From: a virus
Virus record (IMG/VR): IMGVR_UViG_3300029906_000002
Location: 76,507 to 140,506 of that record
Strand: one strand, 5' to 3'
Length of the DNA: 64,000 bases
Shown: in pieces, positions 35,984 to 52,634 of the stretch
Layout: the number at the start of each line of letters is the position of its first letter
Numbering within the stretch: the stretch's first letter is position 1
Made by a program: the position numbers and the translations under genes
The notes under the pieces: model-generated
Database searches by the model: none
Seen by the model: the letters and a program-made list of their open reading frames with translations, nothing else
Told to the model about the DNA's origin: nothing

Positions 35984-36328
35984 ATGATTAAGAGATTTGT
36001 ACCCATAAAAACCCATTCTATATTGGCTGTAAAATGGGATGGAAACATTGATACGCTTGAAGACATCGAAGCAATAACGGGTAAGTGTACCGTCGAGATG
36101 AAACAGGAAAGTTTTAATACTAAAGGATTCAGATTTGCTGATGATGTCAACTATCTGGTTGAATATGATAATAAGAAGATGTTGTATGTAGCTACCAGTT
36201 ATGGATTGTTCTGTTGCAACGTCGGTGACTATGTAGCCAGTATATATAATAAGGATAAAGACGACATGTTGTCGTCAGTAATTCGTGAACATGTATTTGA
36301 GAAAACTTATAAATTATACGAACAATGA
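35984..36328 (+). CDS. Conserved phage hypothetical protein
   Basis: AVKWDGN...VGDYV...FEKTY pattern; stop overlaps groEL start. Confidence 0.7.
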
Positions 36329-37875
36329 GTAAGATTATTAAGGAAGGAAAAGAGTGTCGCAACAAGGTTGCTGAAGGTATGAAAGTGCTATACGACATGG
36401 TATCCATGACGCTTGGACCAGGCGGAAAGAACGTGGCTATCGTGGATGGATTCGGCGGATTGAAGGTTACCAAGGATGGTGTCACCGTCGCCAAGTCCGT
36501 GAAGATTGACGATGAGGCTATGAATATCGGTGCCATGTTGCTCAAGGAAGCCGCACAAAAGACTTGTGATGAATCAGGTGATGGTACCACTACTACCACG
36601 GTGCTCGCCTACAATCTTATCAAGGAATGCGAGAGCTATATTGACCAAGGCGGTATTACTGTGACCCAGTTACGCAACAGTCTTGCTGAGGCTTGCAAAC
36701 AGGCTGTGGATGCCATCAGAAAGATTGTTATTGAGTGTAAGGATGCCGAGGATATTCACAATGTAGCCCTCATCTCTTCCAATGGCGACAAGATGGTAGC
36801 CGACCTGGTTACTGAGGCTATCGTGAAGGCGACCAAGGATGGCGCGGTATCTATTGAAAACTCCCAAAGCACGGAAAGCTATGTGGATGTTGTTACAGGC
36901 ATGAGATTCGAGAAAGGTTACGAATCGCCGTATTTTATCAATGACGAGAATATGAAGACCTGTACATTTGATGCCCCGAACATTCTCGTCATTAGAGGCA
37001 AGGTAGACAACGTGAACAATCTCGTTACCATCCTCGGCAAGACCATTAAGGAAGGTAACGGTAGACCGGTACTTATCATGGCAGACGAATTCGAGCACGA
37101 CATCATCAACATGCTTGCCGTGAACAAGGTACAGGAAGGTGTGAAGGTTTGTGCGGTCAAATTACCGTCTTTCGGCGAGCAACGTGATGCCATGACGGAT
37201 GATATCTGTAAGCTCATCGGTTGCCAACCTATCACATACGCCTTGTCTGGCGGTTATGACTTCGACATTGAAAAGCATGTAGGCAGTTGCGATAAGATTA
37301 TCGTAGACCTGCACAATACAACTATAGCAGGAGGAGATGGAGACCCTGATGTGATTACGGCAACCATTGAGCAGCTTCGTGAAGAAATCAATCATGAGAC
37401 AGATAGCTCTACAATAGCCCGATTGAAGGAGCGTCTTGTCAAGCTGTCCGGCGGAGTGGCGGTCATTCATATCGGTGCCAATTCGGATACTGAGGTGAAC
37501 GAAATCAAGGACCGTGTAGACGATGCGGTATGCGCCGTTCGGTCGGCCCTGCAAGAGGGTATTGTACCCGGTAGCGGGTTTGCTTACTGCTATGCTATGC
37601 ATGAACTTGCAAAGATGGGCGGGTATGGTAGCGAAGGACGTGAAATACTCATCAAGACGCTGCCGGTCATCCGAAAGATGGTTTACGACAATATGGAGAT
37701 AAGCCATCATAACCAGAGCGAATGGTACGATGCTTCCAATGCTGAAGGCAATGAACTTATGAACAAGGGTATCATGGATCCATTCAAATCTATCCATACC
37801 GCACTTGAGAATGCTGTATCAGTTGCTTGCATGTTCTTGATTATGAACGGCTGCGTAATTGAGAAGCATGAATAA
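36325..37875 (+). CDS. groEL: Phage-encoded chaperonin GroEL
   Basis: [55 protein letters not shown]; no GGM tail. Confidence 0.97.
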
Positions 37876-46287: not shown

Positions 46288-46484
46288 TCGGATGCTACGC
46301 AGCCCAGCCAAGTTACCAACTCGAATCACGTTACAGCGAGCTGTAACGCTGTTACGTTTGCTACGCTTTCACGTCCTGTCGGCTTTGCGCGGCTGGCTGG
46401 AGTGTGAGCGGTTTTCAACAACAACCAATTTGCAAAACCGGGCGAAGGTTCACAGCCTTAGCGCACGCCCACAAACAAAACAAA

Positions 46485-49750: not shown

Positions 49751-50389
49751 ATGGAGAACAATGTAAAAGTTGCATGGGATCTGAGTGAAAACGAAATCAA
49801 GTTTGCAAAGATCAATGACCAGAGAAACAAGGTTGAAGAGGATCCGGAAGCCGGTGACCGCTCATCGTTGGTGAATACGGAGATGAACACGCTGGTGAAG
49901 GGCGACATCTTCCGCTTTGACGAATCTGTAGGTTCACAGACCTGCTTGCGTCAGAAGGTGCGTAACAGCGATGCGTATGCACGGTTCGTTCATGTCAACT
50001 GCGTGGGCAAGGTTCGTAACTTCTATTTCAGCAGCATCACGCGTGTGGCAGCCGAGGTGGTTCGTCCGACTATGGAAGGCATGGTATGCGTGCCTACTGG
50101 CAAGACGTTTGCTGCGAATAGAAAGAACTTCGACATCGACGGCGAGCAGACTGACTTCGCTAAGGTGGCTAACCAGTTCGTGAGCGACAAGGCTTTGGCT
50201 GAGGCTCTGACTGCCGAGAAGGTGGTATTAAAGGTGCTGGACAAGAAGCAGGTTGTGGTAGCGAGATTTACCGACAACACGCGCACGAGCAACCAGAACC
50301 TGATGATGGTAGACTTCAACGAGCAAGATGAGGAGAAGCGTGCCGCTATCATCGAGGCGTTGATGAAGCGTGCCGCTGAGGCTATCTAA
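49751..50389 (+). CDS. Early protein, 212 aa, possible nucleic-acid-binding beta fold
   Basis: Biased codon use, structured leader upstream, hairpin downstream. Confidence 0.75.
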   Translation: MENNVKVAWDLSENEIKFAKINDQRNKVEEDPEAGDRSSLVNTEMNTLVKGDIFRFDESVGSQTCLRQKVRNSDAYARFVHVNCVGKVRNFYFSSITRVAAEVVRPTMEGMVCVPTGKTFAANRKNFDIDGEQTDFAKVANQFVSDKALAEALTAEKVVLKVLDKKQVVVARFTDNTRTSNQNLMMVDFNEQDEEKRAAIIEALMKRAAEAI

Positions 50390-50417
50390 AAAAAAGGCTT
50401 GAATAAGTCGTAATGTG

Positions 50418-50449
50418 GTAGGCCATTCTATGTGAATAGGGTGGCCTAC
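50418..50449 (+). terminator. Hairpin/terminator with GUGA tetraloop
   Basis: 14-bp stem with two G-U pairs, loop GTGA 50432-50435. Confidence 0.65.
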
Positions 50450-50461
50450 TTGCCATGTTTA

Positions 50462-50493
50462 TTTGCTTAAATGGGAGGATTTCCATATTTTTG
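50462..50493 (+). promoter_or_regulatory. Complete Bacteroidetes promoter TTTG-N20-TAnnTTTG
   Basis: TTTG 50462-50465, TATTTTTG 50486-50493, no convincing ORF downstream. Confidence 0.65.
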
Positions 50494-50499
50494 CCTCCC

Positions 50500-50780
50500 T
50501 ATTTGTGCCGCTGCATATTACGGCATTGAATTTAGCATTTGTGGCGGGGTTTGTGCGTTTCCCTGTTCTTGCACGTTTCCTGCCATTAGTTTAACATTTT
50601 ATTTGTGGCGTCCCCTGCGGATGACTATTATTCCCATAGTTGCGGGGTTGCCATTTGAGCGCGTCTTGTTGTGACAGGACTGAGGAGTTTAGCCCTGTCA
50701 TTTAGGTTGATACACTGTTTGTGCTTTCCAAGGCGCGTGAAGGGAAGGGGTTTTATTGATTTTGCTCCCCTTCCCTTTTT
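50500..50780 (+). ncRNA. Candidate structured ncRNA 1 (~280 nt)
   Basis: Promoter upstream; stems 50541-50586, 50606-50653, 50659-50667/50730-50738 enclosing 50673-50699; terminator 50740-50780. Confidence 0.6.
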
Positions 50781-50844
50781 AAAGAGATACAGGTTTGTCC
50801 GTTGTCCTGCGAACAATGGGCTTTGTTTTGTAATTTTGGTTGTT

Positions 50845-51284
50845 GGCCGTTCTGGCTTGGGAGAAGTCGGGACGGTTTTGAATTGGATTGTAACCGGCCT
50901 GTCTGAGGACGGGCTGTCAAGATATACAAGTTCTCTGTGTGGCGATGTGAATCGTTATACGGGGAATCGGCGGCGGAATTTCCATGATTTTAAATTGTGT
51001 TGGACAGATTCTTTTTGTAACTCGTATAATTCTAGCTTGTTCCGCCGCTTTTTAGGATATTGGTCCTGGTTGACGCCAGGGCCATGCCTGCTACCGGGCA
51101 GCTGTGAAGCCATACCGGTTGCGGCTTTGTTTACTTATTCAAGCTAATTGTTTTGCGGCATTTTGATTTGTGTTCACTTGAAATAGGTGGATTTGTTGCG
51201 ATAATTTCTATATTGTGCCGCTTGGTTTTTTAATGTCTATCTAATAGTTTTTCCTTTCTTACCTGTGAAGGTAGGGAAGGTTTT
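50845..51284 (+). ncRNA. Candidate structured ncRNA 2 (~440 nt)
   Basis: TAATTTTG at 50831-50838; many G-U-rich hairpins, three U-GUGA-A loops, long-range helix 50970-50979/51039-51048; terminal hairpin 51253-51280 then T4. Confidence 0.62.
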
Positions 51285-51308
51285 ATTGTGAACTTGGGTG
51301 TGATTCTA

Positions 51309-51316
51309 TATATTTG
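51309..51316 (+). promoter_or_regulatory. Bacteroidetes -7 promoter element
   Basis: TATATTTG right after the ncRNA terminator. Confidence 0.45.
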
Positions 51317-51508
51317 GCACGACAAGACTATAACCAGTTGTTGAGGAAGAGTTTCATCGTGTATGGAAGAGAAAGTGTGGGAACTTTATATCTTCATAAT
51401 AATGATGAAATGATGTTTTGTTGCGGGACATGGTGCGTGAGCATAGTGTCCCTTTCTTTTTGAACGAACTTGGCTTTGATTGGCCGATTAAAATAAAAGG
51501 AGGAAACA

Positions 51509-51718
51509 TTGATGATGAGAAGTGTGAAACTGATGCGGCCTGCTTTCATGAAATGCGGGTTATGCGTATATTCGCTCGATGGTTCGTTCGTAGTGGATGG
51601 ACTGCGGGGGAGGAGTAGTGCGTTTGTTGGCAAGTCCGGAGCCTGCTATGTGCAGTACGTGAAGCAGGGGAAGAATGTGGCCATTGAAAGTATTGTATGG
51701 ATAGGAAAGGAGGCTTAG
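51509..51718 (+). CDS. Small hypothetical protein
   Basis: 69 aa, GGAGG upstream, stop abuts next start. Confidence 0.45.
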   Translation: MMMRSVKLMRPAFMKCGLCVYSLDGSFVVDGLRGRSSAFVGKSGACYVQYVKQGKNVAIESIVWIGKEA

Positions 51719-51719
51719 T

Positions 51720-52553
51720 ATGACTGACAGAGGAGGAAAGAAACTATACGATAGGGACAGGCGGGAAAGGTATAGGGTGAACGGGCTGAACCTGGTTGCT
51801 GATGTAAACAAGAACCTTGAGGGGTTGTTGGGTATTGACGGCAAAGAAAAGGAGGCTTGGCTACTAAAAAAGATGGCTGTAAACCCTATGGAATGCTTGG
51901 TTGTGACTAAATATCCTACGCCTGTGGCCTATTTTGTGCCCTGGATGTTCGGCAAAGAGTATTCGAGTTCCTTGTTCCTACGTAACGAACGTAACGATTT
52001 TTCGTTGAGTTTGAGGGGTAAGGACGTATGCAAGCTCTTTCACGCGGGAAATATCAAGGTTGAGGACCGTCATATCTGGGATGGATTGTCTTGGAGATGG
52101 ACGACAATGGCCTACTGCGCATGGCAGGACTGGGTTCCTGTGCTTTTTGGAGAGCTTCCTTGGCTGGTGGTGGACTTGATTACTTCGAGCCGATTACTGA
52201 TAGGGGGTATAGCTTTTGAGGGCGTATATGGCTGGAAATACCCCGTAAAACGCAGGAAAACCGGAGCACCTGTCGCGGATATTTTCGGTCAAGTAGGAGC
52301 AAATGGCTTGTCCGATTTGAGCGTGAGTACTATCCCTTGCTATCCCGTTGAACCCGTGTTGGAGTGGCTTTGCATGGCTTACGGATACAAATGGTTGCCT
52401 TCGTATGGCAAAGGGTTGTATGGGGTGGATTTGTACGTGGAGAGTGGCAAGGTAGCGAGCTTCGGGGGTACGGTGAAGAGAGATTGCTATTTAGATGCAA
52501 TCAACTGGTTGTTAGACCGTTTGGGTGTGCAGGAATTGGTTGAGGGGATGTAG
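51720..52553 (+). CDS. Hypothetical protein (Trp-rich)
   Basis: 277 aa. Confidence 0.7.
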   Translation: MTDRGGKKLYDRDRRERYRVNGLNLVADVNKNLEGLLGIDGKEKEAWLLKKMAVNPMECLVVTKYPTPVAYFVPWMFGKEYSSSLFLRNERNDFSLSLRGKDVCKLFHAGNIKVEDRHIWDGLSWRWTTMAYCAWQDWVPVLFGELPWLVVDLITSSRLLIGGIAFEGVYGWKYPVKRRKTGAPVADIFGQVGANGLSDLSVSTIPCYPVEPVLEWLCMAYGYKWLPSYGKGLYGVDLYVESGKVASFGGTVKRDCYLDAINWLLDRLGVQELVEGM

Positions 52554-52626: not shown

Positions 52627-52634
52627 TACCTTTG
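52627..52634 (+). promoter_or_regulatory. Bacteroidetes -7 promoter element
   Basis: TACCTTTG with TTTG 21 nt upstream; followed by GATGGCAAGA/TCTTGCCATC leader hairpin. Confidence 0.6.

What the first reader, a model, noticed from the sequence alone, without database searches (positions are those of the whole stretch)
50831..51284. Candidate ncRNA 2 with repeated U-GUGA-A tetraloop hairpins
Seen: TAATTTTG just before the first stem (50845-50877); hairpins 50895-50916, 50931-50966 (GUGA), 51061-51084, 51085-51100, 51101-51110 (GUGA), 51253-51280 (GUGA, then T4); long-range helices 50970-50979/51039-51048 and 51155-51161/51215-51221. A fourth GUGA loop is at 50432. Established: GNRA loops mark folded RNAs and boxB-like protein sites; some phages carry large structured RNAs. 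Inference: a novel ~440-nt RNA, possibly a multivalent protein sponge, tandem with ncRNA 1.
Basis: partly seen in the sequence, partly recalled or inferred. Interest (0 to 1): 0.8.

Follow-up and report, generated by a model that had tools for sequence, protein, structure and literature searches.

The report
Conserved hairpin-array RNA in phage gap
A 1.1-kb gene-free stretch of a large gut phage folds, on one strand only, into a row of RNA hairpins that related phages keep through compensating mutations; it matches no known RNA family, and its function and expression are still untested.

Summary
Window 50831-51284 folds far better than shuffles on the + strand (z -7.3) than on the - strand (z -2.5). 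Seven other versions of the gap, from related phages, keep hairpins H1-H4 and H8 with 98-100% pairing and 20 pairs changed on both sides. H5-H7 hold within each clade. About 22% of pair cells are G-U, so the structure is RNA of the + strand. No Rfam family matches and no ORF is conserved.

The interval is not clearly one 440-nt RNA. It is the middle of a 1.12-kb non-coding gap (50390-51508) built from separate hairpin modules. The TAATTTTG promoter motif is missing even in an 80%-identical relative. H1, H6 and H8 are terminator-like. In one clade H1 and H8 belong to a hairpin family, apex GGU(G/C)C-GUGA-G(C/G)AUAG, which also caps the gap's last terminator (51425-51452). That apex recurs in more than 200 viral contigs and in Bacteroidales genomes, at gene ends and in front of tRNA-like RNAs. 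Distant relatives carry a hammerhead-like core in the same gap.

Best reading (0.45): a terminator-punctuated cluster of small structured RNAs that doubles as the leader of the downstream genes.

The parts
50390..51508 (+). Whole ORF-free gap between the 212-aa gene (49751-50389) and the 68-aa ORF (51512-51718); the finding is its middle part
   Evidence: No credible ORF under code 11, TAG=Q or code 4. Gene callers found no conserved gene in the relatives' gaps. The gap is 84.9% identical to L110, against 66-69% at third codon positions of the flanking genes; to L002 it is 70.9% against 54-65%.
50417..50450 (+). Hairpin T0: 15-bp stem and GUGA loop, just after the stop codon of the upstream gene
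   Evidence: (I3). L110 keeps it with compensating changes. Clade B has a different hairpin in this place.
50740..50777 (+). Hairpin followed by U5; ends the upstream structured stretch
   Evidence: (I6). The hairpin plus U-run is kept in both clades.
50797..50821 (+). Hairpin HB with an invariant loop CCUGCGA, followed by a U-rich run
   Evidence: 100% paired; 3 of 9 pairs changed on both sides. The motif GUCCUGCGA is also kept in the distant relative L006. Flagged as terminator-like.
50831..50838 (+). TAATTTTG (matches the TAnnTTTG motif); present in this genome only
   Evidence: Absent at the aligned place in L110 and in clade B.
50845..50877 (+). H1, followed by U4. In clade B it is a member of the GUCC-GUGA-GGAUAG hairpin family
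   Evidence: 100% paired, 2 pairs with changes on both sides. Model R1 hits clade-B H1 at 25-27 bits, E about 1e-5. L110's H1 is flagged as terminator-like.
50894..50917 (+). H2 hairpin
   Evidence: 97% paired; 3 of 10 pairs changed on both sides.
50918..50929 (+). Conserved unpaired block (CAAGAUAUAYAAG) between H2 and H3
   Evidence: Nearly invariant across the 8 versions of the gap (the window's and 7 relatives').
50930..50967 (+). H3: long hairpin with a GNRA loop (GUGA; GGGA in L110, GCGA in L122)
   Evidence: 96.7% paired; 6 of 15 pairs changed on both sides.
50969..51049 (+). H4: long-range helix 50969-50979 / 51039-51049 closing a variable A/U-rich insert
   Evidence: 100% paired; 2 pairs changed on both sides.
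51061..51084 (+). H5 hairpin
   Evidence: Kept in L110 with changes. Clade B has an unrelated hairpin at the same place.
51089..51121 (+). H6: composite hairpin with a GUGA apex (51100-51109), followed by a U-rich run. In clade B it is a near-perfect GNRA hairpin followed by U4-6
51155..51221 (+). H7: helix GCGGCAU / GUGCCGC closing a 53-nt insert
   Evidence: Both arms are nearly invariant in all 8 gap versions, so there is no covariation.
51253..51284 (+). H8: 12-bp hairpin with a GUGA loop, then U4; terminator-like
   Evidence: 100% paired; 4 of 12 pairs changed on both sides. Flagged as a terminator in all lineages. The apex is identical in L006, where the hairpin sits 22 nt before the ribosome-binding site of the small ORF. 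Clade-B H8 hits model R1.
51296..51461 (+). Next unit, outside the finding: the most conserved part of the gap. It holds TATATTTG (51309), hairpin 51320-51343, a long hairpin at about 51346-51420, and the terminator 51425-51452 with apex 51432-51446 and a U-rich tail
   Evidence: 6 pairs changed on both sides.

Best explanation
The interval is the central part of a 1.12-kb non-coding RNA island, read on the + strand like the genes on both sides. The island is a row of independently folding hairpin modules, not one large fold.

Some modules are GNRA-capped hairpins followed by U-runs: the hairpins at 50740 and 50797, H1, H6, H8, and the last one at 51425. I read these as punctuation. They stop or pause RNA polymerase, and they leave stable 3' hairpins. 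This cuts the transcript into three or four small structured RNAs. The finding covers two of them, roughly H2-H6 and H7-H8.

Polymerase that reads through the last hairpin supplies the downstream 68-aa and 277-aa genes. In this genome those genes have no other host-type promoter motif (TAnnTTTG) nearer than 51309. The island would therefore also act as their leader or attenuator.

Shown:
- strand-specific structure;
- selection on pairing and on sequence;
- modular gain and loss of hairpins between relatives;
- membership of some hairpins in a widespread hairpin-apex family.

Inferred:
- that the region is transcribed;
- that the U-tailed hairpins terminate transcription;
- what the core RNAs (H2-H5, H7) do. 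My guess is that they bind, in cis or in trans, the same unknown factor that recognises the conserved apex.
For: Structure and strand:
- Fold z is -7.33 on the + strand and -2.47 on the - strand.
- 107 of 494 pair cells are G-U.

Covariation across the 8 versions of the gap (this window's and 7 relatives'):
- HB, H1 and H2 are 99% paired with 8 pairs changed on both sides. Controls with the partner slid sideways pair at 43-57%.
- H3 and H4 are 98.1% paired with 8 such pairs.
- H8 is 100% paired with 4 such pairs.
- H5-H7 hold within each clade.

Selection on sequence:
- The gap is more conserved than third codon positions of the flanking genes.

Modularity:
- The homologous gap is 362 nt in L006, 425 nt in L123 and 248 nt in L124, with subsets of the same hairpin types.

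Punctuation hairpins:
- The U-runs after the 50740 hairpin, HB, H1, H6, H8 and the 51425 hairpin are kept in both clades.
- The simple terminator scan flags H8, HB and H1.
- Model R1 finds the final terminator in all relatives (44-45 bits). It also finds clade-B H1 and H8.
- In other phages the same apex sits between co-directional genes and in front of tRNA or tRNA-like genes. This is the expected behaviour of a boundary element for small transcription units.

Leader role:
- In L006 the H8-type terminator is 22 nt from the ribosome-binding site of the small ORF.
- In this window, + strand TAnnTTTG motifs occur at 46353, then only at 50486, 50831 and 51309, then at 52627.

RNA processing at this locus:
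- Distant relatives carry a complete hammerhead core on the + strand in the same gap.
Against: - There are no expression data of any kind.
- Promoter motifs for the separate units are not conserved. 50831 is unique to this genome, 50486 and 51309 are shared only with L110, and clade B has none on the + strand.
- Three TAnnTTTG motifs in 1.1 kb of T-rich sequence are only about three times the number I estimate by hand from base composition, so they are weak evidence.
- Several U-runs are short (3-4 U), so real termination efficiency is unknown.
- The phage encodes its own sigma factor. It may use promoters, or a polymerase, that I cannot recognise.
- In this genome (clade A) H1 and H8 are not detected by the family model R1.
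- Covariation rests on 8 sequences in two clades, so many of the changes are inherited together rather than independent.
Confidence: 0.45

Rival explanations
1. Purely cis-acting leader. The whole gap is a long 5' leader or inter-cistronic spacer whose stacked terminators gate the switch from the upstream gene block to the downstream one. A phage or host antiterminator that recognises the GNRA hairpin apex (boxB/N-like or RAT-like logic) lets the polymerase through. No stable trans-acting RNA is made.
For: - A family-type terminator sits directly in front of the small ORF in every lineage.
- Three terminator-like hairpins sit back to back within 140 nt (50740-50877), with no room for promoters between them.
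- In other phages the apex lies inside replication and recombination gene blocks, between co-directional genes.
- The apex sequence is conserved while the base stem varies freely. This is typical of a protein-binding hairpin.
Against: - No antiterminator candidate was found. The flanking proteins have no Pfam or PHROG family.
- No boxA-like element was identified.
- The conserved non-terminator modules (H2-H5, H7) and the 1-kb size are more than a gate needs. L006 manages with 362 nt.
Confidence: 0.25
2. One reading: one discrete RNA of about 440 nt (50845-51284), with its own promoter at 50831 and its terminator at H8, acting in trans as a multivalent sponge or decoy through its repeated GUGA hairpins.
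For: - In this genome TAATTTTG precedes H1, and H8 plus U4 closes the unit.
- In clade B, family hairpins H1 and H8 bracket the same core.
- Several GNRA loops are kept across clades.
Against: - The promoter motif is absent in L110 (80% identical) and in clade B.
- A transcript starting at about 50845 would meet the terminator-like H1 at once, and H6 midway.
- The number of modules varies between relatives.
- No partner protein is known.
Confidence: 0.15
3. Selfish or neutral hairpin debris. The gap is a permissive spot where small hairpin elements, which may be mobile (the apex family occurs in many unrelated genomes), pile up and decay, with no function for this phage.
For: - The same 15-nt apex turns up in unrelated phages and in host genomes with unrelated neighbouring genes.
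- Hairpin content differs between relatives.
- H1 and H8 look like copies of each other.
Against: - The gap is more conserved than third codon positions.
- Pairing is kept by compensating changes in hairpins that are not family members (H2, H3, H4, HB).
- Unpaired blocks are invariant.
- The family has a conserved centre and variable ends, the opposite of inverted-repeat mobile elements.
Confidence: 0.1
4. A DNA-level element: a replication origin, packaging site or recombination site whose hairpins form in single-stranded or cruciform DNA.
For: - It is a long non-coding region rich in inverted repeats, inside a phage early region.
- GCGGC/GCCGC words recur.
Against: - 22% of conserved pairs are G-U, which would be A-C mismatches on the other strand.
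- Folding is strongly asymmetric between the strands.
- U-runs follow the hairpins on one strand only.
- There is no turn in cumulative GC skew here.
- Relatives have a + strand hammerhead core in the same gap.
Confidence: 0.03

Closest known systems
Intrinsic (Rho-independent) terminators with GNRA tetraloops
   Same: H8, the 50740 and 50797 hairpins, H1, H6 and the 51425 hairpin are G+C-rich stems. Most are capped by GUGA, are followed by a U-run, and point the same way as the genes.
   Different: - Six such hairpins lie in 1.1 kb with no genes between them.
- The apex sequence, which includes a G.A mismatch, is conserved across unrelated phages. A control apex of the same composition is about 7-fold rarer. 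Ordinary terminators show no such sequence constraint.
- Part of the family has no U-run at all.
Phage lambda/P22 nut sites (boxB hairpin bound by N) and HK022 put RNA: cis-acting antitermination RNAs
   Same: They are short hairpins with GNRA-type loops in early-operon leaders. They lie upstream of genes whose expression needs read-through of terminators.
   Different: - No boxA element, no N-like protein and no put-like two-hairpin fold was found.
- Here the hairpins are themselves terminator-like and repeated.
- This comparison comes from my own knowledge of those systems. It was not tested beyond the negative Rfam searches.
Large or clustered phage-associated structured RNAs and ribozyme neighbourhoods (GOLLD, ROOL, RAGATH motifs, hammerhead clusters)
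   Same: - It is a long, conserved, structured non-coding stretch in a phage.
- Distant relatives carry a hammerhead-like core at the homologous locus, with sub-threshold matches to Hammerhead_HH9 and RAGATH-1-hammerhead.
   Different: - No Rfam model matches the window or the clade-B gaps, even at E up to 10 for the window and up to 5 for the clade-B gap.
- The architecture is a variable row of hairpins rather than a fixed multi-domain fold.
- The window itself has no hammerhead core.
Phage tRNA gene arrays with spacer hairpins
   Same: In other gut-phage contigs the same hairpin apex precedes or separates tRNA and tRNA-like genes. A terminator-punctuated small-RNA cluster is the same layout that I propose here.
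   Different: ARAGORN finds no tRNA in the window. I saw no T-loop motif on reading the gap; it was not scanned for one.

Membership tests
Any Rfam 15 family (ROOL, GOLLD, tmRNA, RNase P, group I/II introns, hammerhead, twister, pistol, hatchet, riboswitches and others) | Covariance-model score at or above the family's gathering threshold | tested here: not met
   The whole window has 0 hits at gathering threshold. Over 50300-51750 at E up to 10 there are only chance-level hits of 21 bits or less, and none to a ribozyme or large RNA. The clade-B gap is likewise negative.
Intrinsic terminator | G+C-rich hairpin immediately followed by a U-run, on the transcribed strand | tested here: met
   H8 (51253-51280 plus U4) and the hairpin at 50797-50821 are flagged. 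H8, HB and H1 are flagged in relatives. The U-runs are kept in both clades.
Intrinsic terminator | RNA 3' ends map to the U-run in vivo or in vitro | not testable with these tools
Hammerhead ribozyme | Core CUGANGA ... GAAA ... UH flanked by three helices | tested here: not met
   No hammerhead hit in the window gap at E up to 10. The core is present only in the distant relatives L123 and L124, below the gathering score: 24.2 bits against 52, and 26.2 bits against 56.3.
Hairpin family defined here: apex GGU(G/C)C-GUGA-G(C/G)AUAG | A 4-bp apex closed by GUGA, a G.A mismatch below it, then a free-sequence base stem (model R1) | tested here: met
   Met for 51425-51452, just outside the finding (44 bits, E 1e-10), and for clade-B H1 and H8, the homologues of 50845-50877 and 51253-51280 (18-27 bits). 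Flank covariation is 93.4% paired against 24-48% in the slid controls (those sequences were pre-selected for pairing, but 30 of 47 unselected contexts also pair).
Hairpin family defined here: apex GGU(G/C)C-GUGA-G(C/G)AUAG | The same features, in this genome's own H1, H3, H6 and H8 | tested here: not met
   R1 gives no further hit in the window or in the 168.6-kb genome at E up to 10. The window's H8 keeps only GUGA and the 3' UAG.
boxB/nut-type antitermination site | GNRA-like hairpin plus a boxA element plus a cognate arginine-rich antiterminator protein | tested here: inconclusive
   The hairpins are present. No boxA was recognised. The flanking proteins have no Pfam or PHROG family. The atlas leads for them are weak.
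tRNA / tRNA-like | Cloverleaf, or an acceptor stem with a T-arm | tested here: not met
   ARAGORN finds 0 genes in the window.
Protein-coding gene | An ORF conserved in relatives | tested here: not met
   The 158-aa ORF 50671-51147 has no Pfam or PHROG hit. No gene was called in 7 of the 8 gap versions; L121 has a 50-aa call on the opposite strand. Indels between the clades are not multiples of three.

The most novel reading that the evidence does not exclude
The apex GGU(G/C)C-GUGA-G(C/G)AUAG is a sequence-specific recognition element for an unknown RNA-binding, processing or antitermination factor shared by Bacteroidales and their phages. This phage's gap would encode new small RNAs (the H2-H6 and H7-H8 cores). 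These RNAs would use repeated copies of the element to capture or exploit that factor, as a decoy/sponge or a programmable terminator switch. This is a regulatory layer not described for gut phages.
Probability: 0.2. Interest if true: 0.75.

Novelty: new variant of a known kind. Interest (0 to 1): 0.5.

Why it matters
Gut phages of Bacteroidales are abundant, yet I know of almost no non-coding RNAs described for them. Here a phage lineage keeps a kilobase of structured RNA under selection.

One of its building blocks is a hairpin apex with a fixed sequence. That apex recurs in hundreds of viral contigs and in host genomes, at gene ends and in front of tRNA-like RNAs. If the apex is read by a specific factor, it marks a shared control point for transcription termination or RNA processing in this host-phage world. 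It would also give a handle for finding small RNA genes in such phages.

If instead these are ordinary terminators, the result is a well-documented multi-terminator spacer of modest interest.

Tried and rejected
- **Known RNA families.** Nothing reached threshold.
- **Alternative genetic codes.** TAG=Q and code 4 open no convincing frame in the gap.
- **Direct DNA similarity.** The phage collection gave no match for the gap or for two other phage loci.
- **Single-protein locus searches.** Searches of viral contigs with the flanking proteins found nothing.
- **RNase III idea for the 277-aa downstream protein.** The atlas structural rows have TM of only 0.24-0.40 on a low-confidence model, and I saw no RNase III signature motif on reading the translated sequence. 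I dropped it.
- **RegA-like lead for the 68-aa ORF.** The feature score is 0.88, below the level the tool calls meaningful. I kept it only as a weak lead.
- **Pairing partner for the invariant HB loop.** Many G/U-rich candidates exist. The 9/9 match to 51421-51429 is confined to clade A. I dropped it.
- **Shared neighbouring gene for the hairpin apex.** BLAST clustering of ORFs around the apex in other phages links none of them to this window's genes.
- **Literature.** Searches for the motif, for crAss-like non-coding regions, for Bacteroides terminators and for RAGATH or hammerhead in phages gave nothing relevant.
- **Relatives' whole contigs.** Searching them with R1 was not possible because those records are not held.

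Full report
**Setting.** The window is bases 76507-140506 of a 168.6-kb viral contig that CheckV rates 93% complete. The contig encodes a terminase, a portal protein, a major head protein, tail fibres, a GroEL-like chaperonin and a sigma factor. Earlier notes call it a crAss-like phage from chicken gut. I confirmed only that it is a large tailed phage.

The finding lies in an ORF-free gap, 50390-51508. The gap sits between + strand genes for a 212-aa protein (49751-50389) and a 68-aa protein (51512-51718), which is followed by a 277-aa protein. None of these proteins has a Pfam or PHROG family. Reading TAG as Gln or TGA as Trp opens no convincing frame.

**Observation.**
- The + strand of 50831-51284 folds to -164.3 kcal/mol, against -125.5 +/- 5.3 for dinucleotide shuffles (z -7.33). 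The - strand gives z -2.47.
- The upstream part of the gap, 50390-50830, is structured as well (z -6.09).
- Of the five GNRA hairpins with a perfect stem of 11 bp or more in the whole genome, three lie in this gap, all with GUGA loops.

**Relatives.** The flanking proteins led to metagenomic contigs with the same gene order. These gave eight distinct versions of the gap.
- Clade A is the window plus L110 (about 80-85% identical in the gap).
- Clade B is L002, L003, L005, L113, L121 and L122. They are 82-99% identical to each other, and 54% identical to the window in the multiple alignment or about 71% over pairwise aligned columns.
- L006 is a more distant relative with a condensed gap of 362 nt.
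- Through 29-40%-identical homologues of the 212-aa protein I reached L123 (gap 425 nt) and L124 (gap 248 nt).

**Covariation.** RNAalifold and explicit pair counts agree.
- The hairpin at 50797-50821, H1 and H2 are 99% paired, with 8 pairs changed on both sides. Controls with the partner slid by 1-3 columns pair at 43-57%.
- H3 and H4 are 98.1% paired with 8 such pairs.
- H8 is 100% paired with 4 such pairs.
- H5, H6 and H7 hold within each clade. H5 and H6 cannot be aligned between the clades, and H7 is invariant, so it is uninformative.
- 107 of 494 pair cells are G-U, which would be A-C mismatches on the other strand.
- The gap is more conserved than third codon positions of its flanking genes: 84.9% against 66-69% for L110, and 70.9% against 54-65% for L002.

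I conclude that a + strand RNA structure is under selection. The caveat is that there are only eight sequences in two clades, so many of the changes are inherited together.

**Is it one RNA?** Probably not.
- TAATTTTG at 50831 is absent from L110 and from clade B.
- The hairpins at 50740-50777 and 50797-50821, and H1, follow each other within 140 nt. Each has a conserved U-run, and there is no room for promoters between them.
- H6 and H8 are U-tailed too.
- Relatives differ in how many modules they carry.
- The stretch after H8 (51296-51461) is the best conserved part of the gap. It ends in a strong terminator at 51425-51452, about 55 nt before the ribosome-binding site of the small ORF.
- In L006 an H8-type terminator sits 22 nt before that site.
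- In this window, + strand TAnnTTTG motifs occur at 46353, then only at 50486, 50831 and 51309, then at 52627. The downstream genes may therefore depend on read-through of the island.

**A hairpin family.**
- The 15-nt apex of the 51425 terminator (GGUGC-GUGA-GCAUAG) occurs in 102 viral contigs. In 30 of 47 distinct contexts the flanks are complementary but different in sequence, where I estimate about 3-4 by chance. Most are followed by a T-run and lie between co-directional ORFs.
- The variant with the second apex pair swapped (GGUCC-GUGA-GGAUAG), which is the apex of clade-B H1 (clade-B H8 has a near-variant, UGUCC-GUGA-GGAUAG), occurs in at least 117 contigs, and that scan was cut short. 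There, 46 of 65 contexts are hairpins.
- A control apex with the same composition and one U-A pair flipped gives 15 contigs and about three hairpin contexts.
- A covariance model of the family (R1) finds the final terminator in every relative, clade-B H1 and H8, and one hairpin in L123. It finds only one site in this whole 168.6-kb genome.
- Complete genomes of other phages carry 1-5 copies.
- The apex followed by a T-run is also in 16 species genomes, 13 of them Bacteroidales. Some copies lie at the 3' ends of ordinary host genes.
- In other phages it lies in replication and recombination gene blocks.
- About half of the copies without a U-run directly precede tRNA-like mini-RNAs, sometimes in tandem. 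ARAGORN predicted nothing at any of these sites except one doubtful tRNA-Ala in L191.
- No neighbouring gene is shared with this window.

**Ribozyme context.** The gaps of L123 and L124 contain a complete hammerhead core on the + strand: CUGANGAG, CGAAAC and GUC with the three helices. Their Rfam scores are below threshold: HH9 at 24 bits (E 0.001) and RAGATH-1-hammerhead at 26 bits (E 0.02). The window and clade B have none. This supports the view that the locus is transcribed and processed as RNA in this group of phages.

**Interpretation.** My best reading (0.45) is a terminator-punctuated cluster of small structured RNAs that also serves as the leader of the downstream genes. The finding covers two of its units, plus H1, which closes the preceding one. 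The rivals are:
- a purely cis-acting antitermination gate (0.25);
- accumulated hairpin debris (0.10);
- a DNA-level element (0.03).

What the core modules do, and what reads the conserved apex, are unknown.

**Novelty.** There is no Rfam family, and my literature searches found no paper describing the motif or such a gap. I rate it a new variant of a known kind: phage structured RNAs and terminator hairpins, here with a sequence-constrained apex that recurs widely. The phage lineage is narrow and the function is unproven, so I score interest at 0.5.

Noticed in passing
window 51425-51452 (apex 51432-51446); e.g. L011, L034, L070, L107, L164, L135: A hairpin apex, GGU(G/C)C-GUGA-G(C/G)AUAG, with a G.A mismatch and a free-sequence base stem recurs in more than 200 viral contigs and in 13 Bacteroidales species genomes. 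A composition-matched control apex is about 7-fold rarer. It has no Rfam family, and I found no paper on it.
   Followed up: partly
L187, L152, L164, L151, L213, L154, L191 (around the GGTCCGTGAGGATAG sites): Many copies of the hairpin that lack a U-run are followed within a few bases by tRNA-like mini-RNAs, sometimes in tandem arrays. Each has an acceptor-like stem, a short hairpin with a 7-nt loop and a canonical T-arm. ARAGORN predicted nothing at these sites, apart from one doubtful tRNA-Ala in L191.
   Followed up: partly
L123:4961-5043 and L124:4669-4774: Hammerhead-like elements with a complete catalytic core sit in the gap homologous to the finding in distant relatives. They score below Rfam gathering thresholds (24 and 26 bits).
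   Followed up: partly
window 51296-51461: This is the most conserved part of the gap. It holds TATATTTG at 51309, an invariant hairpin at 51320-51343, a long hairpin and the family terminator, about 55 nt before the small ORF. The layout resembles an attenuator-type leader.
   Followed up: partly
window 50797-50821: A hairpin with an invariant loop motif, GUCCUGCGA, is kept even in L006, where the flanking protein is only 58% identical. Three stem pairs are changed on both sides. Its partner or ligand is unknown.
   Followed up: partly
L114:4058-5284 and L116:4058-5284: Some clade-B relatives carry a TnpB (OrfB_IS605) gene inserted right after the 277-aa gene. Other relatives and this window have a 385/386-aa gene there instead. 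This looks like a polymorphic insertion.
   Followed up: no
L125-L127: A 37%-identical homologue of the 212-aa upstream protein lies in contigs whose neighbouring genes look bacterial (an LPG-synthase-domain gene, an rRNA adenine dimethylase gene and an MgtE gene).
   Followed up: no
window 36325-37875: The phage encodes a GroEL-type chaperonin (Cpn60_TCP1, E 1e-52).
   Followed up: no
G000:C1:73968-74001 (- strand; about 2.5 kb before the window starts): This is the only other very long GNRA hairpin in the genome: a 15-bp stem with a GUAA loop.
   Followed up: no
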